Shown here one piece after another: positions 19,513 through 34,014 of a stretch of 64,000 nt of DNA. Source of the stretch: an uncultured delta proteobacterium (lineage in GTDB: Bacteria > Desulfobacterota > Binatia > UBA9968). Numbering within the stretch: position 1 is the stretch's first letter; each line of letters begins with the position of its first letter. The notes below the pieces were generated by a model. The model made no database searches. It had not been told where the DNA came from and saw only the letters and a list, made by a program, of their open reading frames with translations. Position numbers and translations under genes: made by a program. The stretch spans positions 160,001 through 224,000 of the forward strand of contig CAVTUQ010000002.1 of the NCBI GenBank assembly GCA_963737905.1, written 5' to 3'.

Positions 19513-22202
19513 TCACTTCAGTGCCGGACCCAAGACGACCTCTGCAAAATCATCCACTTTGATCCAGCGCGCAAATGCGGCTTGTACTTCGGCAGCCGTC
19601 AGTTCTTTATAGCGCTTCGCTGCCTGGATCGGTTCATCGAGCGGCAGATCCCTCAACGAACGATCGAGCAATCCGCCCGCAATGCCGCGCGTGCTTGATT
19701 CGGAGAGCGGTATGCCGCGCACCAGTAACGTCTTGGCTTGCACCAGCTCCTCAGAGGTGACCGGTTTCGTTTGCATCTCACGCAGGTTACGCTCCACAAG
19801 CACCCTGCGCCTTGGAGGTGTTAGGCGGATCGCAGGCATAAGACACAGTGAGGACGGAACGGTTCTTTCCAGATTGAAGTGCCGCGCCGACCGAATACAC
19901 CAAACCGGTGTTTTCCCTCAGGTCACGATACAGCCGAGTCGCATAGAACGCTCCGGAAAGAACGTTCATGCCAAGCTGAAGCGAATAATAATCCGCATCC
20001 TGGCGCGTCAGCTCGAAGGTCTGGCCAAGCGTCACGTCATCCTGCACCCGGCTACGATCAGGGACTAAAGTCGTCTTGGGCTGATTACGCGGCACCGGAG
20101 GAAGATCCGTCTCGGGCTTCGGCCCAGTTGCCTTCCATTCTCCAAAATATTTTTCCACGACGATCTTTGCCTGCTCGGGTGTCACCTTGCCGATAACGAC
20201 AATGGTTGTGAGATCCGGGCGTAAGACCTTTGCGTAATAAGCACGGACGTCTTCAAGCTCCAGGGACGACACGGTCTCCGGCGTTGCTTGGCGCAACGTC
20301 GGATCGTGCTCGGGAAAAATCGCTTGAAGCAGCGCGCGCTGGGAAAGGTAAATAGGACTTTGCAGACGGCCGGCCACCGCCTGACGGGTTCGCTGCTTTA
20401 CAGCCTTGAACGCCGCTTCGGGCAATGCGGGATGCAAGAGATTGTCCGCGAGCAGTTCGGTTCCCCGGTCGAAGCGATCCGCCAGCACCTGAAGCGAGAA
20501 GCGTGTTCCTGCCGTGACCTCGGCCGCGATCTCATCCAGCGCTTCCTGAAAGGCCACACGGTCCAGCTTCGTCGATCCGTAGGAGAAGAGGTCGTCGAGG
20601 ATTTGGTCGACTCCTTCTTTTCCTTCTGGCACCTCCAGCTCGGGACGGTTCTTAATTGCGCCGTAAATGCTGACCGTGTCACTGATGGTTTCCGGTTGGA
20701 CGATCAGGCGCACCCCGTTGGGTAGCACGGTCACCGTAGGGTTGACCTTCGACATCGGCACATCGAGAGGGTTTAATCTCCTCTTGGCCCAGGCCGGCAA
20801 CGGAACCGACTTCGTTTCCTTCGGTGCGAAAGACTCATTACCTGGACGGGAATTCTCTGATGCAACCGGATTACCGGATTCTTCTGGCGTCAATACCGCC
20901 ACGACCGCCGTGTCATTGGTGATATATTTCTTCGCGACCCGGTTCACGTCCGCAACCGTAACTTTCTTGATCGCCTCGATGTCATCGTCCGGCGAGCTGC
21001 GTCCCTCAATCGCCAGCGCCTGCGACCATTCTCGCGCGAGGCCTGAAATGGAATTTCTGCGAAATTCTGCATCGGCTATCTCGTGACGCTTGGCTGCTTC
21101 GATGAGATCGACGGGAATACCCCTCTTAAGGTATTCGTCAATTATTTGCTTCATCTCAGCGATCAATGCTGAGCTGTCTTGTCCCCGCGGGAACACCGCG
21201 TTGGCATAACCCAAGCCGGCTTTAGGAAGCGCGACGGCGTCGAAACCGGCGGAGAGAGCCTTTCCCTCGGCAGCCAAGGCGTACAAGTTTCCTCTCTGGC
21301 TGTCCAGCGCGTCGGCCAGAATTACGCCGGCGGCAAAATCCGGGTCGTCGTATCCCGGTAACCGATAAATCAACGCAGCCATTCCGTACGGGAGATCCGA
21401 GTCGATTTGAATGGTTGTGCTCTTCAGAGGCCGCAGTTGGATCTTGGGACGTGGGGGCACGACGCGGCGTGGAATCGGTTCGAACAACCGCTTGATCGTT
21501 GCCAAAGCGGCCGTGGGATCCACATCACCGACTATGACCAGGATCGCATTGTTGGGCGCGTACCATTTCTGGTGAAAGTTTTTTAGCATTTTCCCCGTTG
21601 TCTTTTGGAATGAGGGACGCGTGCCAAGGGCATCGTGCGCGTAGGGCGTTCCGGCAAAGATAACGCCGAGGAGCCGGGAGTAAAACATGTATTGCGGATT
21701 GGACAGATCCCGCGCGACCTCCTGCTCGATAGCGCCTCGTTCCTGTTTCCAGAGGTCTTCGGTGTTCAGCACGTCACGCATGCGGATGGCCTCGATATTA
21801 AGCGCGATTTCAAGATCGCTTGCCGGGACCGTGAAGTAGTATTGCGTGACCGCCTGCTGAGTGTTGGCGTTAAACCTGCCGCCCATCGCGGCGATGAGGT
21901 TGGAAAGCTGAGCCGACGAAAGACCCGGGCTGCCGCGAAACATCATATGCTCCAGGGCATGCGCCATTCCTGGAAAACCCTCCGGCGCTTCGTTCGAACC
22001 CACCAAATAGTTAATCTCCGTCGTGACCACGGGCGCCAGTGTGTTGCGGACGATCACCACGCGGAGGCCGTTTTTCAGTGTCGCGCGTGTGACATTCGAT
22101 GCCGTTGCGGGCTGAGCCGGCGCGGTAGTATGGCTTAGCACAACGGCCAGTATCAGCCCACATCCTATGAAGTCGCAAGATTTTTTTCTGATGATCGCGC
22201 AT
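19513..22202 (-). CDS. M16 (pitrilysin-family) zinc protease, secreted; frameshifts near 19805 and ~22170
   Basis: HALEHMMFRG inverted zinc motif, two M16 halves, LRENTGLVYS. Confidence 0.88.
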
Positions 22203-22214
22203 CGTTACATTCCT

Positions 22215-22987
22215 TTATCCGGACTCCAGCATGGCTACTAACAGCATCAACCCAACACCCACCGCTATCGCAATGAGTTGTATGATAGATTTTAACAGAT
22301 CCGATTCCTTGTTAAGTTCGGGCACCAGATCAGAGCCCGCGATATAGATAAAGCCGCCGGCTGCTAAAGGGAGCATCAACGAAGAAAAATGCTCTACTCT
22401 GGAACTCACCAGGAGAGCGACAATGGTCCCCAAGATCGCAAACAGAGCTGATATGAAATTAAAAAAGATGGCTCTTGCTTTTGAGAAACCGGCGTACAGT
22501 AAGACGAAGAAGTTACCCAGTTCGTGTGGGATTTCATGAAAGATAACAGCAGTGGTAGTCGCGATGCCAACGGGAAGACTTACCAAATACGACGCTCCAA
22601 TAATCATCCCGTCGATAAAATTGTGGACGCCATCAGCGAGCAAATTCATATAGCCGACCGGACGAATGGGATTGTTGGCCTCCAATGTGTGCTGATGTCT
22701 CCAGAGCAGAAATTTCTCTAAAATAAAGAATGCGAATATGCCGGCCAAAAGATAAAGCGAGGCTTCGATATTTGCGTCAAATTTTGCAAACGCCTGTGGT
22801 AGTAAATGGATGAATGCATCGCCGAATAAACTGCCGACGGCGAGGCTGACCATAACAAAAATTATCCTTTTCAGCGTCTGTTCTCTGATTGAGATGAAGG
22901 CGATACCCACCAGTGAAAGAAGGCTCACCAAGACGACGCTGACCAGGCTATAAAACCATGCGACCGGCGTAGCTTCCGCCTTTTCAT
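22215..22987 (-). CDS. ZIP-family metal transporter
   Basis: LFGDAFIHLLP, DGVHNFIDG, HEIPHELG, GGFIYIAGSDLVPEL; start uncertain, abuts the upstream stop. Confidence 0.9.
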
Positions 22988-24432
22988 CCAGTGAACAGAT
23001 CGCGCACGACTTCTTTAACCGAATCGGTATAGGCCAGTCCGAGATTGGTCGCGGCGGGCGTGGGAACGGCGCGTTGAATCCGTCTCTCCCACAGCACAGT
23101 CCCATCATCAATCCGTATGAGCTTGAAATCAACGAAGACTCGCATGAACTTTTGCGACTCACCTTCCCAACGCCAGATCTCGCTGACGAAGACCAAGCCT
23201 GAAAGTTTTCCCTCACGAGCCATCCGAACAGCCCCATTCATGTCGGCGGGGAAAGCCGGAAAGCGCGGATCCATTTCTTCGGGAAGGGTAACTAGGTAAC
23301 CGTTTTGCTCCAACCCCTTGCGCAAGTCCTCACGCAACAAATCCATCACGCTCTGTCGGTAGTCGGAGGAAATCTTTCCTGCCATCTCTGCAAGGGAGCG
23401 TAGCGGATTTGTCGCCGGTAAAAGTAAAGGCAAGGCGGTGCTGTTCTTCACTTTTGCCAACCAAACTTGCTCTTTCTTAATGTCTTTCACTTGCGGCACC
23501 GGCGCAGAAGGCGTTCTCGTGGCGCAACTGGTAACCGCTCCGCCAACAAAAATCAGCATCAACAGCGCCGCACCTATTTTGGTTGGGACGCGGCTTAATC
23601 CGTAGGCTAGAAAGATCAGACAGCAGCCTAGGGTCACATCGGTGGGCCCCAAAGGAAGGTCCAAACGCACGGAGCTGTAGAAACCCAAAAAGGCCATAAT
23701 CACTCCCAGTATGGACGATAGTATCAAAAAAGAGCTCATCCGGCTCACCAAGGGCCGCGCCGCGAGCGCCGGCAGCACCAAGAACCCAAAAATCAACTGA
23801 GGCCCCGCCATGATCACTCCAAAAGCGATGATCAATCCGGCGAGAAGATAGAGCAACACATCCCAGATCACTTGACGCCCTTTCAAAAGAAACGCCAAAT
23901 CACGATCGAAAGAGGTCAAGAGAAATTCCCGGCGAAATATCAGCATCGCTACAAATACGACCCCAAAGACACCGATCAGTAGCCTCAGTTCGCCTTTGGA
24001 CAGCGCGATGACCTCACCCTTCAAGAGACTGAGAACTTCGATCTGGCCGGCTGGATTGAAGACTAAAAAGAGGATGGTCAATGCTCCGGCGAAAGCATAG
24101 GCAGCGGCCAGGCGACCTTCCGGGAAGCCTTTCCCGCGCTGTTCCAGATAGCCGAGTAACCCCATTCCTAAAAAAGTAAACACAAGCGAGCCGACCATAG
24201 CAATGCCGCGTTCACTCTCTCTAAGCTGTGGCAAGAGACCAGCCTGCTGCAACCAGAAAGTAAAAGAGACTCCGGCAGCGGCGATTTCCGGGAGCGTCAG
24301 TCCAAGGAATATCGTGCGCCGAAGGACCAGGTAAGAACCGATCAGCGGACACACTAACCCCATGATCATGGTACCTACGAGCGCAGGAAAAAGCAGATAA
24401 GAAGGATTCACAATTTCAAACAAAGTGCTCAT
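22984..24432 (-). CDS. ZnuB-type metal ABC permease fused to a C-terminal lipoprotein-like domain
   Basis: LVCPLIGSYLVLRR, SFDRDLA, LVLPALAA, LDLPLGPT, then AVTSC and ~180 soluble residues. Confidence 0.85.
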   Translation of the reverse strand: MSTLFEIVNPSYLLFPALVGTMIMGLVCPLIGSYLVLRRTIFLGLTLPEIAAAGVSFTFWLQQAGLLPQLRESERGIAMVGSLVFTFLGMGLLGYLEQRGKGFPEGRLAAAYAFAGALTILFLVFNPAGQIEVLSLLKGEVIALSKGELRLLIGVFGVVFVAMLIFRREFLLTSFDRDLAFLLKGRQVIWDVLLYLLAGLIIAFGVIMAGPQLIFGFLVLPALAARPLVSRMSSFLILSSILGVIMAFLGFYSSVRLDLPLGPTDVTLGCCLIFLAYGLSRVPTKIGAALLMLIFVGGAVTSCATRTPSAPVPQVKDIKKEQVWLAKVKNSTALPLLLPATNPLRSLAEMAGKISSDYRQSVMDLLREDLRKGLEQNGYLVTLPEEMDPRFPAFPADMNGAVRMAREGKLSGLVFVSEIWRWEGESQKFMRVFVDFKLIRIDDGTVLWERRIQRAVPTPAATNLGLAYTDSVKEVVRDLFTG

Positions 24433-25160
24433 GGCTGGTCACTCACTTTCTTCTCTTGCAACCAGATTTTTCCCTTGTCCACGCGAACGATTTTGTCGGC
24501 AACTCGCTGCACCATTTCAAGGTCGTGACTGGAAAAGAATAACGCCAACCCATTAACTCGGGTCAGGTGAATTAAAAGTTCCGCGATGGTCTTACGAGAT
24601 TCCTCATCCACACCGGACAGCGGCTCGTCTAGAATCATGATCTTCGGCTTGACCATCAAGGCGCGAGCAATAAGAATCCGCTGCTTTTGCCCGCCGGAGC
24701 ACGCAAAAAAAGATTTCGTCACAAGGTGGCGCATGCCGACTTGCTCTAAAACCTGGCTGGTTCTTTCCTTTTCTTCAGAGGGAAGGAATTGATACGAGCG
24801 CACGCGGCCGTAGGCTCCCATCTCCACGATCTCTCTCACGCTCAAGGGAAAGTGAGGATCGAGCGCGGCGCTTTGAGGCACATAGCCAAATTCCGATAAT
24901 GCGCAGTGTCGAGAAATAGAGCCGCCGAGAATCGGCAGAAGTCCGAGGATAGCGCGGAAAAGCGTCGTCTTGCCCGAACCGTTCGGACCGGCCACGCCAA
25001 TAAGGTCGCCTGGAGAAATCGTCACGTTTACGCCGTGAAGAACCGGCGTCGAATCGTAACCCAAGCTGACATCCTGAAGCGAAACCAGAGGGAGAGGCTC
25101 ATCTTTCGATACTCTCCCTCCGGCACTTTGTATTCCGTCGATATCTTGTCCCAACTTCAT
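24429..25160 (-). CDS. ZnuC-type metal ABC ATPase
   Basis: GPNGSGKT, GYVPQ, FPLSV, SGGQKQR, LDEP. Confidence 0.9.
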   Translation of the reverse strand: MKLGQDIDGIQSAGGRVSKDEPLPLVSLQDVSLGYDSTPVLHGVNVTISPGDLIGVAGPNGSGKTTLFRAILGLLPILGGSISRHCALSEFGYVPQSAALDPHFPLSVREIVEMGAYGRVRSYQFLPSEEKERTSQVLEQVGMRHLVTKSFFACSGGQKQRILIARALMVKPKIMILDEPLSGVDEESRKTIAELLIHLTRVNGLALFFSSHDLEMVQRVADKIVRVDKGKIWLQEKKVSDQP

Positions 25161-25164
25161 GCCT

Positions 25165-26095
25165 CTAACTGACCGACTGAACTAAGGTACGTACAGTATA
25201 ATCAATCCATTTAATATAGGTATCGGTTTCCGGCTGGTTTCCTCCGCCGCTGTAAAGACGCAGAACCTTGATGCCTGTTTCGGCAGAAATTTGCTCGGGG
25301 AACCGCGGATTCTGAGCACCATAAATTAGCAACTGGGCTTTATCTTGCTTGATCTGCTTGTACCAACTGCACTATATGATTTGGCGTCGGCTCAATTCCA
25401 GGCTTTAACTCAATGCTCCCTATCCGCTTCATGCCAAATCGATCAGCAAAATAAATCCATTCCGGATGATACTCGACATATTTGACCCCCCGTAGAGGAA
25501 CCGCCATTTTTTCCCAGCGCGCAATCCAGCTATCCAGCTCCGCCATATAGGCTTTTAGATTTTTATCAAAGGCTTGCTGATGCTGGGGATAATTACGCGA
25601 GAGGCCGTCGGCGATGTTCTTCGCGACGATTTTCGCTCTCACAGGGTCCAAGAGATAGTGAGGATTTCCCTTCGGGTGAAGGTCGCCTTCCGACCGGTCC
25701 ACGAGTGTGGGAGCCTCGAGCACCGGAACTCCCACGGAACAATCTATATAGCCTGGCCGCCCTAGAAGAATTTTAGGATTATTTGCCACCTCCAAAAGCG
25801 CTGGGAGCCAGGAATGTTCGTCATCCAAGCCAATCAAGACCAGCACGTCTGCTCGGTTTAGCCTGGGTACAAAGCTCGGTTTCATGGGAACACCGTGAGG
25901 ATCCTCGACTCCCGTCGCTAGACTATCTGCAGTCACCAACTCTTTACCGATCTGCCGGGTAATATCAGCCAAATCTGGCAACGTCGCCACGACACGGATT
26001 TGCTGCGCGAAGACTAAACCGGTTTGCAGCCAAACCAATGCGAGCGATATGAAAAACACCTTCCAGTTTTTACTTCTCAACAGTTTCATCTTCAT
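25165..26095 (-). CDS. Cluster A-I metal-binding protein (ZnuA/TroA-like); frameshift near 25355
   Basis: DPH, GDLHPKGNPHYLLDP, YH, IELKPGIEP; the C-terminus resumes in another frame to TAG at 25165. Confidence 0.88.
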
Positions 26096-26119
26096 AAACG
26101 TACTCCTTCTTATAGAGCT

Positions 26120-27416
26120 CTAACGGGTGAGGAACCCGTGGGTATGAGCGCCGATCACAGTCGTCCATTGGAGAAAAAATTGATTGCCTTTCTCGGCTTT
26201 GTCCGCTTTAAAATTATTGCTCAAATAGCTGTATTGAAAACGCAGTCGGTTAAATTCGCTGACGTTCCAGGTCAAGTACGGCGAATAGCTGAGCGTCCTC
26301 TGGCCTGAGTTATCAACCACCGGAGCGTAATCGAAGAGAAATCCAGTGGCCCAATTCTTGTTCAACTTGAGATCGACGTAACTGTAGCCGCCATAGGATT
26401 GTTGGCGCTTACCCACAGTGCGCGTTTCCAAAATACTCGGGTCATCCTCATTTGGAACCTCGATGTCAAACGGGAAAGCGCTCGCTGTTGGCATAGAATT
26501 CACTCCCCCACGTCAAACCCTGATAAACCGAGCTGCCGAGCGGTTGGTAACGATAAGTCAGATCAACACCGTTGAGCATCCGAGCGCCGCCAGAGGCATC
26601 ACCTGCGAGTCGCACCGAAGGCGTGTAGGCAAGGCTCGTACCTAATTCAATACTATGATTATCCGTGAGATCAAAATAAGTATTGAGCCTTCCGAGATAA
26701 GTAAACTGACTCCCGGACCGCAGCACTGTATTGTCGATTCGATCGTTGCCCTCTCCCATCTTGTTCATTGCGCCGAATGTCGCTCTCATGAAAAAAGGCG
26801 TCGGAAAAAGATAATACAATTCCGCCCCGTCCGCCTGCGTTTCGCCTCCCACCATCCGCTCGATAGAAAGCGGCTCGTTAACAAAAGGCAGCTCATGCTC
26901 ATGGTACTTGGGAAAGCGCCCGAAATCGGCCAAGAAACGACCTCCTTTGGCCGTCAGGTTATACGGGAGAGAAGTGGTGATCGCCGCGGCTTCATCTATC
27001 TCTACGCCATCCTTTGTACCGTTGATAAAACTATACATCCTCGCAAACGGATCTATTGAAGCCGCAATGCCGAACTCAGCACTGCGAAAATCAAAAAGGC
27101 CTCCGGCTGTGCCGCGCTTTTGGACATTGGCATCGAGCACAAGACCCATGGAGGGATTGAGCGCGCTGGGCGCGCTCTGAACCGCCTGGACCGATTTTTC
27201 CACCTGGCCCAGCCTAGCGGAGCTGGAAGATTTTTCCTTTTCCAACTGGTCAATTCGATCCAAAGCGTTCTTCAATTGATTCTGCATTTCCCCCAGTTGT
27301 TTCTTAAGTGCCTGAGTCGCATCTTCCTGTGACAGTCCCACTCTCGGAAACAAGATCACCAAGCATAATACAAATAACGCGGATGTGGTTTGCAATCTAG
27401 TTTGACATAAATCCAT
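26120..27416 (-). CDS. Outer-membrane beta-barrel of the type associated with metal ABC operons; frameshift near 26475
   Basis: Signal peptide, coiled coil, ASIDPF, HEHELPF, EFNRLRFQY, C-terminal IGAHTHGF. Confidence 0.8.
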
Positions 27417-27498
27417 AAATCCACCCCCTACAAAAACAGGTATCTACCCCTCCCAACCAGGGAAGGGAAAATTAATAAATTTACGCGTGAAGGAAGAA

Positions 27499-27801
27499 TT
27501 ACAGAGGGAGTGAAGATGGAGGCGCGCGAACCGCGGGAGACTTTATTGAAAGCGCACCAAAAACTTGAGCTTCATGAGTCGTAATGGAGAAAATCTGAAG
27601 AGAGGGACTGTGCTCAGCTAGCGCTGAAGTTAATCCTGCGTGGATTCGCGTTCCATGATAGCAGCTACATTCATTGCCGACTCGTGCGGTCGAATTGAAA
27701 AAATGGAGGTGTAAAGGCAGAAAGAAAACAAAGAACAGGACTATTGCCGCGACGACACGGCGAGTGGTTGGACCCTTCTCCTTGAAAAATCGAAAGGACA
27801 C
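27499..27801 (-). CDS. RAPP-motif leader peptide 1 (DUF2946/CruR/CutF-like), 100 aa
   Basis: GTG start, TM, LPLHLH, ECSCYHG, C-terminal RAPP; directly upstream of the metal uptake operon. Confidence 0.8.
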   Translation of the reverse strand: MSFRFFKEKGPTTRRVVAAIVLFFVFFLPLHLHFFNSTARVGNECSCYHGTRIHAGLTSALAEHSPSLQIFSITTHEAQVFGALSIKSPAVRAPPSSLPL

Positions 27802-27808
27802 GGTCCCA

Positions 27809-27837
27809 AGGCTAGTCAAGCGGTAGCGGGTTGTCAA
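27809..27837 (-). promoter_or_regulatory. Sigma70 promoter (leaderless) of leader peptide 1
   Basis: TTGACA(27837-27832)-N17-TAGCCT(27814-27809)-N7-GTG. Confidence 0.7.
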
Positions 27838-27886
27838 GGAAATAAGAGATTCTGCAGCACCGAGATTCGGCCTAACCCCGGCCGGT

Positions 27887-27949
27887 CGACAATCATTTTC
27901 ACATCACTCATCAGATAGCAGGTTTGTCGGATTGCGAATTGTTTGCAAT
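27887..27949. promoter_or_regulatory. Two Fur/Zur-family-like boxes
   Basis: TGAAAATGATTGTCG (minus strand, 27901-27887) and the imperfect 9-1-9 palindrome ATTGCGAAT-T-GTTTGCAAT (27931-27949). Confidence 0.5.
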
Positions 27950-27963
27950 TAACCGGCGGCCAT

Positions 27964-28577
27964 TCAGCTTCCGGGTTTTCTCGACTCCAGTTGTGCAAAT
28001 ACCTCTTTCATGACCGTCTCGGCTACGAAGATGTTCGCTTGGCCGGTTAGCACGATGCCGTAAAGCGGAACGGGCCGCGAGGGACGGTTGACCTGCCAGA
28101 GTATCGCGCTCGTTTTGGGATCGACCATGATCACGTCTAAAGCGACGATCACGCCGTCGGCTTTCATTCCCCTCTCACTCGGCGTCGGTTCCCAGCGCCG
28201 CACTTCGATGTACAGGGCAGCCGCGTCAAGCCGCGCCTGTTCCACAATTTGCGCCGCCATCTGCGGGCTAGTCGGCACACGATCTTTGGTTGACAGCTTT
28301 ACAATGCTGGGTTCAACGACGTCGAAACGCTTCGCCGCGAGCTGGGCACGAGCCTGCTGGGCGAGCAGATCTTCGATCGTTCTCGACGGTAGACCCAGGA
28401 GTTCGCTCTCTGTTGCAGTGGGGCGCGTCTCGGCCGCGCCAAGCCGATAGGGCGGCAGAACCACGATCCGGCTAACATTTTGGGGAAGTCGAGTGACGAC
28501 TATTTGCGTGCACCCAACGCTCCGAGCAACAAGCTGAGAAGTCCGATTCGACCGATCAACGTTTTTTGTTTGCTCAT
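27964..28577 (-). CDS. Lipoprotein (DUF799-like fold); frameshift in the lipobox
   Basis: ATG 28577 gives MSKQKTLIGRIGLLSLLLGALG; adding one G near 28513 gives LG-CTQ in frame with IVVLPP...ILWQ. Confidence 0.65.
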
Positions 28578-28629
28578 ATTGGTATTCTCTTTGTCCATTT
28601 GCCCGGGAACTTCTACCTCCACGCGCCAA

Positions 28630-29467
28630 CTATAGAAGACGCCGATGCGTCATTTGTCCGAGAGTTCCCAAGCTGAAAACGTCTTCAATCGTGCGCAGAA
28701 GGCTGTAGTGGTTGTAGGCGGTTTTGGAGACGCTACCGGAGAGGACCGAATCCCCTATTAGAGCCGTGAAGACGCGGTTGCTCGGATCATTGTCTTCTGC
28801 CTCGTCGAACGTGATGACAAACAACAACCCGTTCATGAAGGCAGAATTCTTCAGCCGAGGGCCAAAGGCCTTCGCTAACCAGCGATCAGCGAAGGCGGGT
28901 CCGGTGTGGTGCCCATCGTTTCTCTGGTCGGGGATATACAAAGAATAATCCGGTAGATTCCCGCTCGCCGCGTCGGAAGTGAGGGCGGATGCGTCAACAA
29001 TCTTGGCGCAGCGAGATGGATCTTTCTGTATGTTCTTGAAGCTCAGAAATGGCACATGTTTGCGTACGTAGTCGCCCGATCGATCTCCGAGAAAACAAAG
29101 TCCGGGATAAGCTTCGGCGTAAACCTTCCATGTCTTACCCTTTGCTTCTAGGAGATCACCGATATGGCGCAAGTTTAGGCTCACCGGTCCGTTAGACGTC
29201 ACACCGGCCGTGGTTCCTGCGGTCAGCGCTATATAGTTCGGCAGCGAGGGATGTGCCTCGGCATAGAATTCACTCAGGAGTGCGCCGCTTTTGGCCAAGT
29301 TGCCAAGGAAAGGCTGGACCAGAGCATCTCTATAATTGGCGTTCTCCAAGATACTGAACATTGCTTGCTCAAACCGCGTCAAAGAGCGGATCCTTCGGCT
29401 CAGCTCCATGCGCCAAAGCGATGGGGAGAAGTAAAACGGCAGCAATCCCAACCAAGTGTCTTTTCAT
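28630..29467 (-). CDS. Secreted phosphoesterase (acid phosphatase / alkaline-phosphatase superfamily); frameshift near 29380
   Basis: ILEN, HPSLPNYIAL, YVRKHVPF, NDGH, ITFDE, YNHYSLLRTIED; signal peptide from ATG 29467 in another frame. Confidence 0.82.
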
Positions 29468-29487
29468 GATAACGGCTAGCGTTAACT

Positions 29488-30039
29488 CTAATGACTCAGG
29501 CCTCCGCGATACTTTTGCCACGCGGCAATCCCCGCTTGCGCTGCCTTCTCGTCAATGCCGGACGGCAAGCCCGACACGCCGACGGCGCCGACCAGGCGGT
29601 TGTTAACAATGAGAGGCAGTCCGCCGGAAACGATGTAGACTTGGCCCGGCCACATATTCATGATGCCGTAGAATCGGTTGGGGGCGGTCGTCATGAGTTC
29701 CGCTACCGCCGCGCTTGGCTGTCGGGAAATGATCGATGTGAATGCTTTGCCCTTGGCCTGATGCTCCGAGTTGAACGAGGTGCCGTCCATCCGATCCACC
29801 GAGACCACGTGCCCCCCATCATCCAGCACAGCGACCGCCATGCGCATTTTCAAGTTCCGGGCATGAGCAACCGCGCCCTCAATGATGATGCGCGCTTCCG
29901 CCAGCGGAATCGAAGATGACGACACGATGGGATTTGACGGCGGAGCGGTTGGCTCGGCCGCTGAAGCAACGCCACTGTTACCGGCCGATCCGAAAATCAG
30001 TAACAGACCAAGTAACGGCAAAAACCGAAAACTTTTCAT
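29488..30039 (-). CDS. GlcG/HbpS-family heme-binding protein, exported
   Basis: AVAVLDDGG, RMDG, AKGKAFTS, GGLPL, GAVGVSG; signal peptide; GGAGG SD. Confidence 0.88.
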   Translation of the reverse strand: MKSFRFLPLLGLLLIFGSAGNSGVASAAEPTAPPSNPIVSSSSIPLAEARIIIEGAVAHARNLKMRMAVAVLDDGGHVVSVDRMDGTSFNSEHQAKGKAFTSIISRQPSAAVAELMTTAPNRFYGIMNMWPGQVYIVSGGLPLIVNNRLVGAVGVSGLPSGIDEKAAQAGIAAWQKYRGGLSH

Positions 30040-30117
30040 AGCACGCCTCCTTTTTGAACAAAGTCTTGAATAGGAGAAAACCTTGGGGATCGCCATCGTA
30101 CACCCTATTTTCTTTCT

Positions 30118-30612
30118 TTACGTACTGCCGTTGGCTTTCGCTACATTTACGACACGGCGCGCGCCCAAAAACCTCTTGGCGTACCACGGCTGGTTGAGAT
30201 CAGTGATGATCACCCGCCCGGCCTTTTTCTCGGCATGTAAGAATTGATGATGGCCCATATAGACACCTACATGAGTAGGTGTGTTACCCTCAGATGAAAA
30301 AAACACCAAGTCGCCAGTTTCCAAACTGTCCATCGGAACTTCCTCGCCGGCCTCAATTTGGTCACGCGAAGTCCGTGGCAGCTCGATGTGCAGTTTAGCG
30401 AAAATCATTTTGACTAAACCCGAGCAGTCCGCGCCCCGACGCTCCGACATTCCTCCCCAGCGATACGGTAGCCCCAGAAAGGTACGAGCCGCTTTCGCTA
30501 ATTTGTAACGAACCGCCTGAGACACGGGAGTGGACTCCTCCGGAAAACAAACCGCCTTGGAAAGAAGCAGGCTCAAAACAAGAAATAAAACCATTATGTA
30601 TAGTCGTTCCAT
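30118..30612 (-). CDS. NlpC/P60 (C40) peptidoglycan peptidase
   Basis: LGLPYRWGG, DCSG, LPRTS, GDLVFF, HVGVY, FLHA. Confidence 0.92.
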   Translation of the reverse strand: MERLYIMVLFLVLSLLLSKAVCFPEESTPVSQAVRYKLAKAARTFLGLPYRWGGMSERRGADCSGLVKMIFAKLHIELPRTSRDQIEAGEEVPMDSLETGDLVFFSSEGNTPTHVGVYMGHHQFLHAEKKAGRVIITDLNQPWYAKRFLGARRVVNVAKANGST

Positions 30613-30822: not shown

Positions 30823-31113
30823 CTAGAGAATAGGAGGTGCGCGGGCTAATTCAGACTCGATGGTAACTTGAACAGGAGCTTCCGTTATGCGGACGATTAA
30901 GAACGACACCCCAGCGGAAGGACCGAGAATAGCAGCTGCTGGAGCCAAGTCCATCTGAACGCGACCGCCGTAACAGCAGCAAGCGCAGTCCTCGCTCACC
31001 TTTGGGTTAGCGGGAAAATGAATATGAAGAGGCAGGAAGAAGACGAACAACAAGATCGCCGCGCTTAAAAGACGGCTGACCTTGTGCGACTTCTTTAGGC
31101 AGAGAATAAACAC
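30823..31113 (-). CDS. RAPP-motif leader peptide 2, 96 aa
   Basis: GTG start, TM, LPLHIH, DCACCCYGG, C-terminal RAPP; paralog of 27499-27801. Confidence 0.75.
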   Translation of the reverse strand: MFILCLKKSHKVSRLLSAAILLFVFFLPLHIHFPANPKVSEDCACCCYGGRVQMDLAPAAAILGPSAGVSFLIVRITEAPVQVTIESELARAPPIL

Positions 31114-31447: not shown

Positions 31448-31475
31448 GTAAACTTTCTGCGGGGGGTCACGTCTA
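31448..31475 (+). promoter_or_regulatory. Putative ECF-sigma promoter
   Basis: GTAAAC-N16-CGTCTA upstream of ATG 31523, next to the ECF sigma gene. Confidence 0.5.
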
Positions 31476-31522
31476 ATCTGGAAAATGGCCAAATGGGCAA
31501 AAAATAGAGGATAGACAAGATT

Positions 31523-32008: not shown

Positions 32009-32590
32009 ATGAGTCGGAGTCCAACTGTGCAGCCCGGAGATGAAGATCTTGTCGCCCTGGCTCGAAACGGGGACCACAAGGCTTTCGAAGAACTCGTGGA
32101 GCGGCACAAACAGAAAGCGTACCGGATCGCGTTCGATTTCGCCCGCGATCGTGAGGAAGCAAAGGATCTCTCTCAAGAAGCATTTTTGCGAGCTTACACG
32201 CATCTGGGTAATTTCGACGGCCGGTCGGGTTTCTATACATGGTTCTACCGGATTCTCGTGAACGTCTGCCTGGACTACAAACGGCGAAAAAAGCGCACCT
32301 TCGCCGAGGAGTTTAACGAAGCGGTCGAAAACCAGGTGGAGCCGAGCCATCTGTCACAAAAGCAGCCTTCGCCTGATCAGCAAGTCCTGGCGGGACAGTT
32401 GTCGCGTAAAGTCAGCGTCGCGCTAGAGGGGTTGCCGCCCAAACAGAGAACTGCATTCATTTTGAAAAACAACCAAGGGCTTTCGATCAAAGAGATCGCG
32501 GAAATGATGCAAACCGCCGAGGGCACAGTCAAAGTTCATCTCCATCGCGCGGTGACGGCGCTCCGCCAAAGCCTGGCGGAGTTCGCTTAG
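32009..32590 (+). CDS. ECF sigma-70 factor
   Basis: DLSQEAF, FYTWFYRILVNVCLD, LPPKQR, EGTVKVHLHRA. Confidence 0.93.
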   Translation: MSRSPTVQPGDEDLVALARNGDHKAFEELVERHKQKAYRIAFDFARDREEAKDLSQEAFLRAYTHLGNFDGRSGFYTWFYRILVNVCLDYKRRKKRTFAEEFNEAVENQVEPSHLSQKQPSPDQQVLAGQLSRKVSVALEGLPPKQRTAFILKNNQGLSIKEIAEMMQTAEGTVKVHLHRAVTALRQSLAEFA

Positions 32591-32599
32591 GAGGTCAGT

Positions 32600-33118
32600 A
32601 TGGCGCAACATGAAAAATTAGATACCGTAGCTTGCACGAATCGGGAAGAGGATCTGGTGCTCTACTACTACGGCGAACTAGGCAATGGACGCACAGCGTT
32701 AGAAGAGCATGTGCGAGGTTGCGAGCCCTGTCGGTTCTATCTGAAAGAGCTGGAGTCAATTCTTCCGTTGACCGTCAAGCCCGACGAGCCACCGCAGGCC
32801 TTCTGGGACGATTACAGCCGGGAGATGCGACGCAAGCTAACGGAGGTCAAAGAGAGAAAGTCGTGGTGGCAGAGCTTAGCGTCATTTTTACAACCCTGGG
32901 CAATCCCCGTTTCTGCTACGGCGATCGTGGCGCTATTGGCGCTGACGTTGACTCTTGGCAAGGGATTTTGGAGCTCCAAGGAAGTCCCGCAGGATGATGA
33001 AGCATTTATGGAGATTCTGCCGGCGGTGGAGAACCTGGAGTTCTTCAAAACCATGGAGGTGCTCGATGCGATGGATTTTCTGGAAAATATGGGAAACACG
33101 AGCAACCGCTCAACCTAG
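32600..33118 (+). CDS. Zinc-binding (ZAS) transmembrane anti-sigma factor
   Basis: HVRGCEPC (HxxxCxxC) and one TM; immediately after the sigma gene. Confidence 0.85.
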   Translation: MAQHEKLDTVACTNREEDLVLYYYGELGNGRTALEEHVRGCEPCRFYLKELESILPLTVKPDEPPQAFWDDYSREMRRKLTEVKERKSWWQSLASFLQPWAIPVSATAIVALLALTLTLGKGFWSSKEVPQDDEAFMEILPAVENLEFFKTMEVLDAMDFLENMGNTSNRST

Positions 33119-33132
33119 CAAGGTCAAAGTTC

Positions 33133-33385
33133 ATGACACAAGTGACTTGGCTAATATTCCTTCTGATCCTGGCAGTGCCACCGGTTGTGTCTACCGCTAC
33201 CAAAGAGACTGAGCCACCGGACAAAGAAATGCTCCGCATGATGGATCTTTTGCGCGAGATGGAGATGATCAAGCAAGTGGAAATGATGCAGGACTTATCG
33301 CAGGTGGAGCAGATAGGAGATCCTGGTGCAGATAATCGCGGACGCGAAACCGTTGCCGGCGAAAAGAAAGGAGGCGGCAAAGTGA
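33133..33385 (+). CDS. Small exported Met/acidic-rich protein (in frame with the next gene here, probably through an indel)
   Basis: Own signal peptide; a second SD plus GTG and signal peptide at 33382. Confidence 0.5.
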
Positions 33386-34014
33386 ACAAACTGATAAAAG
33401 TCTTTCCGCATGTCCTGCTTGCCGCTTTGTTTTTGTTTCCGGCTGCGGTATGGAGCCAGGTGCAGCCAGGGGAAAGGCTAACCCAAAATGACCAGGGGGC
33501 GCTGGATCGCTGGCAGCGAATGACCCCGGAGGAAAAACAGGATCTGCGCGATCGCTACCAGCGCTGGAAGGGTTTGCCACCGGAACAAAAGGCCGACTTG
33601 CAGAAGCGGTATGACAACTGGCGCCGTCTTTCGCCCGACGAAAAGGCGACAGTGCAAAAGAATTACGAGCGTTGGCAGGGCCTTTCCCCCGATCAGCGGG
33701 AACGGTTGCAGCAGCGCTGGCAACAATGGCGCGCGCTTCCGCCGGAGCGCCGTCAGGCGCTGAAGGAGCGCTTTGAGCGCTACCGCGAATTGCCTCCGGA
33801 GAAACGGCGCGAGCTCAAGGAAGAGTTTCAGGAAAAATTCCAAAACCTCTCTCCCGAAGAAAAACAGCAATTGCGCGACAAGTTCCGCGAGCGCGCCCAA
33901 CGGCTTTCACCGGAGCAGAAGCAGCACCTGCGCGAGAAGCTGGAGCGACTCTCACCGGAAGAAAGAAAAGCTTTGCGGCAACAGTTCAAGGACAAGACTC
34001 AACCGGCCAAATAA
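33382..34014 (+). CDS. DUF3106-family repeat protein
   Basis: GGAGG SD, signal peptide, about 9 repeats of W/YxxL[SP]PE[EQ][KR]xxL. Confidence 0.8.
   Translation: MNKLIKVFPHVLLAALFLFPAAVWSQVQPGERLTQNDQGALDRWQRMTPEEKQDLRDRYQRWKGLPPEQKADLQKRYDNWRRLSPDEKATVQKNYERWQGLSPDQRERLQQRWQQWRALPPERRQALKERFERYRELPPEKRRELKEEFQEKFQNLSPEEKQQLRDKFRERAQRLSPEQKQHLREKLERLSPEERKALRQQFKDKTQPAK

What the first reader, a model, noticed from the sequence alone, without database searches (positions are those of the whole stretch)
22215..27949. Metal-uptake operon headed by a RAPP ribosome-arrest leader with an HxH + CxCxH sensor
Seen: a 100-aa ORF (27801-27499) with a TM helix, LPLHLH, ECSCYHG and C-terminal RAPP. It lies 82 nt upstream of an OM barrel-SBP-ATPase-permease-ZIP operon. 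Known: RAPP/RAGP motifs arrest ribosomes (ApdP, SecM), and DUF2946 leaders with CxxC plus RAPP (Bordetella CruR, Rhodobacter CutF) control copper genes co-translationally. Inference: this variant has a different ligand set (HxH, CxCxH) and controls a Zn/Mn/Co-type importer, so it may be a metal-sensing arrest switch of a kind I do not recall being described for cluster A-I ABC/ZIP operons.
Basis: partly seen in the sequence, partly recalled or inferred. Interest (0 to 1): 0.9.

Follow-up and report, generated by a model that had tools for sequence, protein, structure and literature searches.

The report
Metal-sensing ribosome-arrest leader of a zinc importer
A conserved 100-residue membrane-anchored leader peptide, with two histidines, two cysteines and a ribosome-stalling RAPP ending, sits in front of a zinc-type uptake operon and probably switches it on or off as it is being made, which would extend a mechanism so far shown only for copper.

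Summary
ORF 27801-27499 (-) encodes 100 aa with a TM helix, LPLHLH, ECSC and RAPP five residues before the stop. It lies 82 nt upstream of a porin-like OMP, a ZnuA-type SBP, an ATPase, a permease and a ZIP gene.

It is a real and tightly defined family: 151 representative clusters in 1.84 billion proteins. Invariant or near-invariant residues are L-P-x-H-x-H, C-x-C and R-x-P-P. The His after CxC is not conserved. The HxH-to-R distance is fixed at 63-65 residues, and 44 residues separate CxC from R; DUF2946/CruR has 45.

The Pfam DUF2946 model does not recognise it. A profile-profile comparison links it to CxxC-type, DUF2946-like leaders that precede the same OMP-ZnuA module in other lineages (91%, E 9e-7).

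The mRNA looks leaderless. The RAPP and tail codons pair with the Shine-Dalgarno site of the OMP gene, and their codon choice favours this pairing.

Best reading: a CruR-like nascent-chain metal sensor, probably for Zn, that controls the operon through RAPP arrest. Stalling and metal response are untested. This is a new variant of a known kind.

The window's OMP and SBP genes each carry a one-base frameshift that related metagenome contigs lack.

The parts
27832..27837 (-). -35 hexamer TTGACA of the leader promoter
   Evidence: TTGACA, a 16-18 nt spacer, TAnnnN, 5-8 nt (13 nt in one locus), then an in-frame start. Found in 33 of 42 unique leader loci. Sequence read.
27809..27814 (-). -10 hexamer TAGCCT, 7 nt before the GTG start. 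This implies a leaderless mRNA.
27499..27801 (-). Leader ORF: 100 aa, GTG start, TAA stop
   Evidence: hmmsearch gives 151 representative clusters at E<=1e-3, typically 97-100 aa long.
27697..27756 (-). Transmembrane segment V16-F35. It is preceded by R4, K7, K9, R14 and R15, so an N-in orientation is inferred.
   Evidence: Sequence. AF2 helix 13-27.
27703..27711 (-). H31-x-H33 at the outer end of the TM segment (within LPLHLH)
   Evidence: H33 is invariant; L28, P29 and H31 are at least 90% conserved in 119 sequences.
27661..27669 (-). C45-x-C47
   Evidence: C47 is invariant and C45 at least 90% conserved. Both are invariant in A1.
27517..27528 (-). [quoted passage not shown]
   Evidence: R92, P94 and P95 are invariant. 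Motif counts. P/A-site assignment from PMC10951233 passages.
27502..27522 (-). Pro-Pro and tail codons, which form the 5' arm of a helix with the SD and start codon of the OMP gene
27447..27467 (-). Spacer hairpin: a CCCUUCCC arm, a loop and a GGGAGGGG arm, nested inside the long-range helix
   Evidence: The C-rich and G-rich blocks appear in the consensus of alignment A5.
27414..27429 (-). Shine-Dalgarno AGGGGGUGG (27421-27429) and the ATG (27414-27416) of the OMP gene
26120..27416 (-). Porin-like outer-membrane protein gene. Here it is split into a 316-aa and a 127-aa ORF by one extra base near 26471-26478.
25165..26095 (-). ZnuA-type substrate-binding protein gene. Here it is split by one extra base near 25356.
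24429..25160 (-). ABC ATPase. The best NCBIfam match is AztA, below its cut-off.
22984..24432 (-). ABC-3 permease with a C-terminal extension of about 200 aa
22215..23237 (-). ZIP transporter ORF. Relatives suggest the real start is near 22980. Related contigs have a one-base difference at 22977/22978.
30823..31113 (-). Paralogous leader: 96 aa with LPLHIH, CACCC and RAPP-IL-stop, and its own TTGACA/TAGGTT promoter. It heads an NlpC/P60-like gene (30118-30612).

Best explanation
The ORF is a cis-acting regulatory leader of the CruR type.

Proposed sequence of events:
1. It is transcribed from a strong sigma-70-like promoter as a leaderless mRNA.
2. Its N-terminal helix inserts N-in/C-out.
3. 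When the ribosome reaches R92-A93-P94 with Pro95-tRNA in the A site, elongation stops.
4. At that moment the CxC pair is about 47 residues from the peptidyl-transferase centre and the HxH pair about 62. The 2His/2Cys site therefore lies just beyond the exit tunnel, at or near the membrane.
5. While the site is empty (metal scarce), the arrest persists. The stalled ribosome sits on the Pro and tail codons that otherwise pair with the Shine-Dalgarno site and start codon of the OMP gene. The porin, ZnuABC and ZIP genes are then expressed. The stalled ribosome could also block Rho, as in CruR.
6. When the metal binds the nascent HxH/CxC site, the arrest is relieved, the ribosome terminates five codons later, the helix re-forms and the operon is shut.

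The metal is most likely Zn(II).

Shown here: the anatomy, its conservation, the fixed spacing, the synteny, the pairing potential and the codon bias.
Inferred: arrest, metal binding, the direction of the response, the metal, and the RNA-level read-out.
For: Family and motifs.
- The hmmsearch of A1 finds 151 clusters at E<=1e-3 and 130 at E<=1e-10.
- Among 155 stored proteins the motif is RAPP in 116, RGPP in 24, RSPP in 4 and RDPP in 1. Ten have none; they are truncated, frameshifted or substituted.
- The tail after the motif is 2-6 residues in 141 of 145.
- The LPLH-to-R distance is 63-65 in 107 of 110.
- H33, C47, R92, P94 and P95 are invariant in 119 sequences.
- The motif is kept through synonymous codon changes (native codons listed).
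- The sequence between CxC and R is variable and AF2 predicts no fold beyond the TM helix.

Same architecture as CruR/DUF2946.
- CruR has a Cys motif, 45 intervening residues conserved to within 1-2, RAPP 3 residues before the end, an export signal and first place in the operon (PMC9426467 sections 9 and 10).
- This family has 44 intervening residues.
- hhalign of A1 against the CxxC-type leaders (A7, no shared sequences) gives 91.3%, E 9.4e-7 over 38 columns.
- 5 of the 12 A6 sequences hit DUF2946 at E<=0.1.

Synteny.
- Leader then OMP in 19 of 20 regions, and ZnuA next in 16 of them.
- In the phylum sample, 17 of 21 OMP loci carry an R[AGS]PP-ending small ORF upstream. Twelve of these have CxxC or CxC 43-49 residues before the R. 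Thirteen of the 21 have ZnuA after the OMP gene.

RNA.
- The MFE pairs the Pro and tail codons with the SD and AUG.
- The best 20-nt partner of the SD lies within -8 to +16 nt of the R codon in 31 of 39 loci.
- Native codons pair better than synonymous recodings: fraction <=0.05 in 18 of 39 loci and <=0.2 in 27 of 39, median 0.06.
- The SD core is mostly paired in the free RNA, with mean unpaired probability 0.14.

Zinc.
- All 50 ZnuA-like proteins of the loci have His at the three ligand-aligned positions.
- The third position aligns with His of Synechocystis ZnuA and with Glu of PsaA (which residues are the ligands is recalled).
- A ZIP gene closes the operon.
- Only one Fur-family gene was found in the 87%-complete genome.

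RAPP and RGPP are the strongest arrest motifs of their class, and CruR arrests in vitro (PMC12992588 passages; PMC10951233 passages).
Against: - No experiment exists, and no RNA run holding the locus was listed.
- The DUF2946 HMM misses all 27 members scanned at E<=10. CXXC is replaced by CxC.
- RNAalifold on the MAFFT alignment of 31 intergenic regions found no consensus structure and no covariation.
- Pro-Pro codons are anti-SD-like by nature, so part of the pairing comes for free.
- Masking the mRNA up to 16 nt past the P site raises the computed unpaired probability of the SD core only from 0.14 to 0.26. The rise exceeds 0.2 in 13 of 39 loci, because the last tail codons and the spacer's C-rich arm can still pair.
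- In 6 of 39 loci the native codons pair no better than recodings.
- The loci are related MAGs, so the counts are not independent.
- In CruR, replacing the export signal did not change regulation, so periplasmic sensing is not assured.
- Cys/His sites also bind Cu, Ni, Co and Cd, and CxC in the periplasm could be oxidised.
- A ZIP gene is seen in only 3 of the 16 related operons within the span fetched.
Confidence: 0.62

Rival explanations
1. The sensor and the arrest are as above, but the read-out is transcriptional, as in CruR. The stalled ribosome hides a Rho-loading site in the C-rich, G-poor stretch at and after the end of the leader. Release of the arrest then allows Rho to terminate before the OMP gene.
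For: This is the CruR mechanism (PMC9426467 abstract). The stretch from Pro94 to 40 nt past the stop averages C 0.34 and G 0.15, with C/G above 2 in 23 of 39 loci. Computed SD opening by a stalled ribosome is only partial.
Against: Codon choice in the RAPP and tail codons favours pairing with the SD specifically. The SD is strongly sequestered in the free RNA, as in CutF (preprint discussion). The two read-outs are not exclusive.
Confidence: 0.2
2. The nascent chain senses something other than zinc through HxH/CxC. Candidates are copper (as in DUF2946 relatives), another divalent metal, or the periplasmic thiol-disulfide state.
For: DUF2946 CXXC leaders sense Cu. Disulfide formation is part of the CutF model. 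CxxC-type leaders head the same OMP-ZnuA module in other lineages.
Against: The cargo-binding protein has the three-His pattern of Zn-specific cluster A-I proteins in 50 of 50 cases. A ZIP gene follows. A 2His/2Cys set is the classic Zn site (general knowledge). No copper-handling gene is in the operon.
Confidence: 0.15
3. The 100-aa product is a working membrane protein in its own right, for example a periplasmic metal-binding accessory or chaperone of the transporter. The RAPP ending would be structural or would merely slow translation, without regulating the operon.
For: The residues are conserved at protein level. The full-length product would exist after release. AF2 gives pLDDT 79-88 for residues 61-90 although it assigns them no secondary structure.
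Against: The spacer is conserved in length but not in sequence, and AF2 predicts no fold. The R[AG]PP position 2-6 residues from the stop is nearly universal. The gene is always first, followed by a 73-122 nt spacer and a sequestered SD. The paralogue heads an unrelated gene, NlpC/P60. RAPP is counter-selected in ordinary proteins (PMC12992588 section 13).
Confidence: 0.08
4. The leader is a Sec/YidC-type monitoring substrate. Arrest would be released by membrane insertion alone, and the operon would follow insertion capacity rather than metal.
For: It has a TM segment and a C-terminal RAPP, as in ApdA/ApdP-type peptides (passages).
Against: No sec or yidC gene lies downstream. The invariant HxH and CxC have no role in that model.
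Confidence: 0.04

Closest known systems
CruR (Bp2923) of Bordetella pertussis, DUF2946 family (PMC9426467; abstract and sections 9 and 10 read)
   Same: Both are the first gene of a metal-uptake operon. Both have an N-terminal export or TM signal and a Cys motif at a fixed distance from a C-terminal RAPP (45 intervening residues in CruR, 44 here). RAPP lies a few residues before the stop. A long spacer precedes an outer-membrane transporter gene. The uptake logic (off when metal is present) is expected to be the same.
   Different: CxC plus an invariant HxH replaces CXXC. The Pfam DUF2946 model does not match it. The downstream genes are a porin-like OMP, a Zn-type ZnuABC and a ZIP, not a TonB-dependent transporter and PepSY protein. 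The metal is probably Zn, not Cu. The mRNA is leaderless. The SD pairs with the arrest and tail codons, whereas CruR acts through Rho termination.
CutF of Rhodobacter capsulatus (bioRxiv 10.1101/2025.02.05.636593; abstract and discussion read)
   Same: Both are exported nascent chains with a Cys motif and a C-terminal proline stall. In both, the stall is thought to open an mRNA structure that shields the ribosome-binding site of the next gene.
   Different: CutF stalls at PPP under EF-P control, and metal induces stalling to switch on a detoxifying oxidase. Here the motif is RAPP/RGPP and the target is an importer, so the opposite sign is expected.
RAPP/RGPP small uORFs upstream of metal genes (PMC12992588; passages and section 13 read), e.g. 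SLIV_16130 and SLIV_18480
   Same: These are small exported or membrane proteins with a C-terminal RAPP or RGPP and conserved Cys/His, proposed as metal sensors.
   Different: The downstream classes named there are TonB-dependent receptors, YcnI, PCu(A)C, PepSY, DsbA and thioredoxin. The words zinc, porin and substrate-binding do not occur in the main text. Its appendix figures and source data could not be seen.
ApdA, ApdP, ApcA and SecM arrest peptides (PMC10951233 passages; PMC7897499 listing only)
   Same: They share the RAP(P/G) arrest chemistry, the position near the C-terminus and an N-terminal localisation signal.
   Different: Those peptides monitor Sec/YidC activity and precede sec or yidC genes. 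They carry no conserved His/Cys ligand set.
Zur-repressed znuABC / zupT regulons (general knowledge; PMC4176598 passage)
   Same: The cargo genes are of the same kind: a cluster A-I SBP, an ATPase, a permease, a ZIP and an outer-membrane entry protein.
   Different: Control there is a Zur box at the promoter. Here the promoter spacers differ between the loci printed and I saw no shared operator in the upstream sequences (by eye), and a leader peptide is present instead.

Membership tests
DUF2946 / CruR (Pfam PF11162) | Match to the family HMM above the gathering score (23.7 bits) | tested here: not met
   The window protein has no hit at E<=0.1. 0 of 27 family members hit at E<=10. The six-frame search of the own genome finds nothing at this site. 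Only the outlying CxxC-type member P0153 reaches 20.1 bits.
DUF2946 / CruR (Pfam PF11162) | Conserved CXXC motif | tested here: not met
   The motif is C-x-C (C45, C47) throughout alignments A1 and A3. CxxC occurs only in outliers and in the leaders of other lineages.
DUF2946 / CruR (Pfam PF11162) | C-terminal RAPP a few residues before the stop | tested here: met
   23 of 23 ORFs picked without regard to the motif have it. 145 of 155 stored proteins carry R-x-PP, and the tail is 2-6 residues in 141 of those 145.
DUF2946 / CruR (Pfam PF11162) | Fixed spacing of about 45 residues between the Cys motif and RAPP | tested here: met
   44 residues separate C47 from R92. The LPLH-to-R distance is 63-65 in 107 of 110.
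DUF2946 / CruR (Pfam PF11162) | N-terminal signal peptide or N-in/C-out TM segment | tested here: met
   The hydrophobic stretch V16-F35 is preceded by five basic residues. AF2 predicts a helix at 13-27. No dedicated topology predictor was available.
DUF2946 / CruR (Pfam PF11162) | First gene of a metal-homeostasis operon, with a long intergenic spacer | tested here: met
   The spacer is 73-122 nt in 39 of 41 loci.
DUF2946 / CruR (Pfam PF11162) | Detectable homology to accepted or near-threshold members | tested here: inconclusive
   hhalign of A1 against A7 gives 91.3%, E 9.4e-7, over only 38 columns. 5 of the 12 A6 sequences hit DUF2946 at E<=0.1, best 1.1e-4. No curated DUF2946 alignment was available to compare against.
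DUF2946 / CruR (Pfam PF11162) | Metal-dependent relief of ribosome arrest that controls the downstream genes | not testable with these tools
   Needs toeprinting and reporter assays.
RAPP-type Sec/YidC monitoring substrates (ApdA, ApdP, SecM class) | Encoded directly upstream of a sec or yidC gene | tested here: not met
   The downstream genes are an OMP, ZnuA, an ATPase, a permease and a ZIP.
RAPP-type Sec/YidC monitoring substrates (ApdA, ApdP, SecM class) | RAP(P/G) near the C-terminus together with a localisation signal | tested here: met
Cluster A-I zinc ABC importer (ZnuABC/AztABC type) | SBP of family PF01297, with an ABC-3 permease and an ABC ATPase | tested here: met
   ZnuA 6e-38, ABC-3 3.8e-33, ABC_tran 6.6e-28. 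NCBIfam equivalog cut-offs are not reached.
Cluster A-I zinc ABC importer (ZnuABC/AztABC type) | Three His ligands, with His rather than Glu at the third position | tested here: met
   50 of 50 SBPs have His at the three aligned positions. Which residues are the ligands is recalled, not taken from a call.
General (16-stranded) porins | Beta-barrel fold resembling solved porins | tested here: inconclusive
   The AF2 model of the intact homologue has pLDDT 76.5, an N-terminal long helix and 17 strands. Foldseek top hits are OmpT, OprP, Omp32, OprO and AlgE at E 1e-10 to 1e-8, but TM is only about 0.5 and identity 10-14%. There is no Pfam family.

The most novel reading that the evidence does not exclude
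This would be the first zinc-sensing nascent peptide. Co-translational closure of a 2His/2Cys zinc knuckle, between the HxH at the outer end of the membrane anchor and the CxC just emerging 47 residues behind the peptidyl-transferase centre, would pull on the chain and release a RAPP arrest. The ribosome itself would then report extracytoplasmic zinc and gate a porin-ZnuABC-ZIP importer without Zur, on a leaderless mRNA. Through a paralogue the same switch would gate a Zn-independent NlpC/P60 cell-wall hydrolase. The CxxC-type leaders in front of the same module in other lineages would make this a widespread metal-sensing mode that has been overlooked because the first downstream gene is always annotated 'hypothetical'.
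Probability: 0.35. Interest if true: 0.8.

Novelty: new variant of a known kind. Interest (0 to 1): 0.62.

Why it matters
Control of gene expression by a nascent chain that senses a metal has been shown for copper only (CruR, CutF). Both groups predict that it is general.

This locus offers a concrete, sharply defined candidate for another metal and another transporter class. The ligand set (HxH + CxC) differs from the copper cases, while the Cys-to-RAPP ruler is nearly the same (44 against 45 residues). That argues that the geometry of tunnel and translocon, rather than the chemistry of the ligand, sets the design.

It also links an uncharacterised porin-like family (at least 1547 relatives in the database, all unnamed) to metal uptake.

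It shows that annotation-based screens miss such leaders when the next gene is 'hypothetical'.

Because RAPP arrests ribosomes of distant bacteria, the hypothesis can be tested in vitro even though the organisms are uncultured.

Tried and rejected
- **DUF2946 membership by HMM.** Rejected: no match.
- **Direct profile comparison with a curated DUF2946 alignment.** Not possible. In a 151-genome sample of the phylum only 4 genomes had a DUF2946 match at E<=1e-3, and 2 were over the cut-off. I therefore used the CxxC-type leaders found upstream of the OMP family (A6, A7).
- **A3 against A6 by hhalign.** The result (97.3%) is inflated because both alignments hold P0153 and P0155. I quote the clean comparison instead.
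- **Relatives of P0153 as a bridge.** Only the protein itself was found.
- **Consensus RNA structure and covariation.** RNAalifold on the MAFFT alignment gave no pairs. I built no covariance model.
- **Zur/Fur operator.** A Fur-box-like string upstream of the -35 in the window (read) did not recur in the upstream regions of the other loci printed. This was checked by eye only and is dropped.
- **Similarity of the 221-aa upstream protein to the permease's C-terminal extension.** BLASTP E 6.3, not significant.
- **ESM Atlas.** The nearest clusters are unnamed, DUF2607, and one cluster that is 54% DUF2946, at scores of 0.93-0.94. These are leads only.
- **Expression.** No RNA holder was listed.
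- **Reads.** The four runs laid were contigs of soil metagenomes. They say nothing on transcript ends.
- **AF2 of the leader.** It gives only the TM helix. No coordinates were returned, so His-Cys distances could not be measured.

Full report
**The observation**

The minus strand holds an ORF from GTG 27801 to TAA 27499 that encodes 100 residues.
- Five basic residues come first, then a hydrophobic stretch V16-F35.
- Next come LPLHLH (28-33) and ECSCYHG (44-50), then a stretch without obvious features.
- The ORF ends in R92-A93-P94-P95 and the tail SSLPL.
- The next gene starts 82 nt further on, at ATG 27416.

The following genes are named by Pfam and NCBIfam: a ZnuA-type binding protein, an ABC ATPase, an ABC-3 permease of 482 aa and a ZIP transporter.

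The first gene after the leader has no family.
- Its intact homologue (417 aa, 78% identical) models as a long N-terminal helix followed by 17 strands (pLDDT 76.5).
- The model resembles OmpT, OprP, Omp32, OprO and AlgE at TM about 0.5.

**State of the genes in this window**

The OMP gene is split into 316-aa and 127-aa ORFs, and the binding-protein gene into 251-aa and 55-aa ORFs. Reading the junctions shows one base too many at each.

Contigs of soil-metagenome runs that carry closely related sequence lack exactly one base at three places:
- at 26471 (two runs) or 26478 (one run);
- at 25356 (two runs);
- at 22977/22978, near the presumed ZIP start (three runs).

In relatives' genomes these genes are whole. 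The frameshifts are therefore private to this assembly or strain, either assembly errors or recent lesions. They do not bear on the design of the locus.

**A real, sharply bounded family**

- A word-indexed search found nine relatives with the same motifs.
- A six-frame search of 60 related genomes found matches at E<1e-8 in about 30 places, plus a paralogue 3 kb away in the window.
- A profile of 27 sequences, scored against 1.84 billion representative proteins, gave 151 hits at E<=1e-3 and 130 at E<=1e-10, mostly 97-100 aa long.
- In an alignment of 119 of them, H33, C47, R92, P94 and P95 are invariant. L28, P29, H31 and C45 are at least 90% conserved. The His after CxC is not conserved.
- Among the 155 stored proteins the ending is RAPP in 116, RGPP in 24, RSPP in 4 and RDPP in 1. 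It is missing in 10 that are truncated, frameshifted or substituted.
- The tail after the motif is 2-6 residues in 141 of 145.
- The distance from LPLH to R is 63-65 residues in 107 of 110, although the sequence in between varies freely.
- A selection that ignored the ending (motif L[PA]LH.H only) gave 23 ORFs, and all 23 end in R[AGS]PP.
- The codons of the motif vary synonymously, so it is the peptide that is conserved.
- AF2 with 119 sequences predicts only the TM helix.

The record titles of the relatives call them Candidatus Binatia (9), 'Deltaproteobacteria' (14), Syntrophobacter(aceae) (3) or other names (6). All are MAGs.

**Context**

- In 19 of 20 regions fetched from relatives the leader lies directly before a homologue of the OMP gene. 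The 20th region ends at its contig end.
- A ZnuA homologue follows in 16, then a permease. The ATPase sits between them in six. A ZIP gene was within the span fetched in three.
- The spacer between leader and OMP gene is 73-122 nt in 39 of 41 cases, and it ends in a strong GGGAGG-type Shine-Dalgarno site.
- The paralogue (30823-31113) and its relatives head an NlpC/P60-like gene instead.

**Relation to DUF2946/CruR**

The Pfam model does not see the family. The architecture nevertheless matches what Roy et al. describe for DUF2946:
- RAPP three residues from the end;
- an export signal or N-in/C-out helix in more than 95% of members;
- first place in the operon, followed by a long spacer (PMC9426467 sections 9 and 10).

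Here 44 residues separate C47 from R92.

I then asked what precedes the OMP family elsewhere.
- In a 151-genome sample of the phylum the OMP family occurs in 22 genomes.
- Of 21 loci outside the window's genome, 17 have a small upstream ORF ending in R[AGS]PP within 10 residues of its stop.
- 12 of these have a His-rich patch and CxxC or CxC 43-49 residues before the R.
- 13 loci have ZnuA right after the OMP gene.
- Five of twelve such leaders (the set includes two outliers of the profile search) hit DUF2946 at E<=0.1, best 1.1e-4.
- A profile-profile comparison of the family here (A1) with ten of these leaders (A7, no shared sequences) gives 91.3% probability and E 9.4e-7 over 38 columns that cover the helix end, the His motif and the Cys motif.

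I read this as a divergent branch of the CruR kind. By the family's own HMM and by its CXXC hallmark it is not a DUF2946 member.

**Promoter**

In 33 of 42 unique leader loci I find TTGACA, a 16-18 nt spacer, TAnnnN, then 5-8 nt (13 nt in one locus) and an in-frame ATG or GTG that gives a 96-101 aa product. In the window these elements are TTGACA 27837-27832, TAGCCT 27814-27809 and GTG 27801.

Transcription should thus begin at or next to the start codon, which makes the mRNA leaderless. The promoter spacers differ between the loci printed, and I saw no shared operator in the upstream sequences (by eye).

The genome is 87% complete and holds one Fur-family gene, far from the locus.

**RNA**

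Evidence for pairing:
- In the window the minimum-energy fold pairs the Pro and tail codons (27522-27502) with the SD and AUG of the OMP gene, and a CCCUUCCC/GGGAGGGG hairpin is nested inside (z -1.8).
- Across 39 loci the best 20-nt partner of the SD region lies within -8 to +16 nt of the R codon in 31.
- Pro-Pro codons are anti-SD-like by nature, so I recoded the RAPP and tail peptide synonymously, using each locus's own codon usage. The native sequence pairs better than at least 95% of recodings in 18 of 39 loci and better than at least 80% in 27. It pairs no better than the median recoding in 6. The median fraction is 0.06.
- This may also explain the recurrent Ser-Leu ending: UCU-CUC is complementary to GGGAGG.

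Evidence against:
- RNAalifold found no consensus structure on the MAFFT alignment.
- Masking the mRNA up to 16 nt past the P site lowers stability by about 15-25 kcal/mol in the six cases printed.
- That masking raises the mean unpaired probability of the SD core only from 0.14 to 0.26.
- The stretch from Pro94 to 40 nt past the stop is C-rich and G-poor (C 0.34, G 0.15), so a Rho-based read-out as in CruR remains open.

**Which metal**

- All 50 distinct ZnuA-like proteins of the loci have His at the three positions that align with ligands.
- The third position aligns with His of Synechocystis ZnuA and with Glu of the Mn protein PsaA (ligand identities recalled).
- A ZIP gene ends the operon here.
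- The OMP family has an invariant HxH of its own.
- A 2His/2Cys set is the classic zinc site.

Zinc is therefore my first choice. Copper, other divalent metals or thiol oxidation cannot be excluded.

**Mechanism proposed**

The mechanism is as stated under Best explanation. The apo nascent chain stays arrested at RAP/P with the operon on. Metal binding by HxH/CxC relieves the arrest, and the operon goes off through re-formation of the helix between the tail codons and the SD, through Rho, or both.

The direction follows CruR (an uptake system) and is opposite to CutF (a detoxifying system). The arrest chemistry is taken from PMC10951233 (passages) and from PMC12992588 (passages).

**Novelty**

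The kind is known: CruR, CutF, and the survey of RAPP/RGPP uORFs with metal-related neighbours. New here:
- a family outside the DUF2946 model, with an HxH + CxC set;
- the link to a Zn-type cluster A-I importer, a ZIP gene and an unnamed porin-like family;
- the leaderless arrangement;
- the use of the arrest and tail codons as the anti-SD.

I found no description of these points in four literature searches and two word searches. Supplements were closed. I rate it a new variant of a known kind, interest 0.62.

Noticed in passing
window 26471-26478, 25356 and 22977-22978: Relative to contigs of soil-metagenome runs and to intact homologues, the window has one extra base at each place. These split the OMP and ZnuA genes and disturb the ZIP start. 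They are assembly errors or strain-private lesions.
   Followed up: yes
window 30823-31113 (-) and 27964-30612 (-): A paralogous leader (LPLHIH, CACCC, RAPP-IL) with its own leaderless-type promoter heads an NlpC/P60-like gene. Next come a 202-aa ORF (29488-30096, not scanned against any family library), a phosphoesterase-family gene and a 221-aa protein with no family, all just upstream of the main leader. In two relatives a leader also precedes NlpC/P60. One possibility is a Zn-independent cell-wall hydrolase switched on with the importer; this is inference.
   Followed up: partly
window 31448-31476 (+): The motif GTAAAC-N16-CGTCTAA looks like an ECF-sigma promoter and points away from the leaders. 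The same motif lies within 700 nt upstream of 23 of 42 leader loci (sequence). Downstream on the + strand are a short ORF starting at ATG 31523 (read by eye, not translated or analysed), a sigma-70 family gene (32009-32590), an anti-sigma-like gene with HxxxCxxC (32600-33118) and a repeat protein (33133-34014). These were read and not scanned against families.
   Followed up: partly
window 22984-23600 (-), C-terminal third of the permease: The ABC-3 permease carries an extension of about 200 aa that starts near a Cys after the last TM segment. Relatives keep it (permeases of 480-520 aa). It has no Pfam match. Its resemblance to the 221-aa protein at 27964-28629 is not significant (E 6.3).
   Followed up: partly
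window 26120-27416 (-) and alignment A4: The porin-like family has invariant H173-x-H175 and H410 and a long N-terminal coiled coil. At least 1547 database relatives carry no informative name (hypothetical or generic labels among the 120 listed), and only three carry a Pfam hit, to a coiled-coil family.
   Followed up: partly
G000 contig C2:96137-96478, outside the window: This is the only Fur-family gene found in the 87%-complete genome at E<=1e-5. Whether it is Fur or Zur was not examined.
   Followed up: no
window 19787-22141 (-): A 784-aa ORF directly downstream of the ZIP gene on the same strand contains an HxxEH motif as in M16 zinc peptidases. This was read only and not scanned against families.
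   Followed up: no
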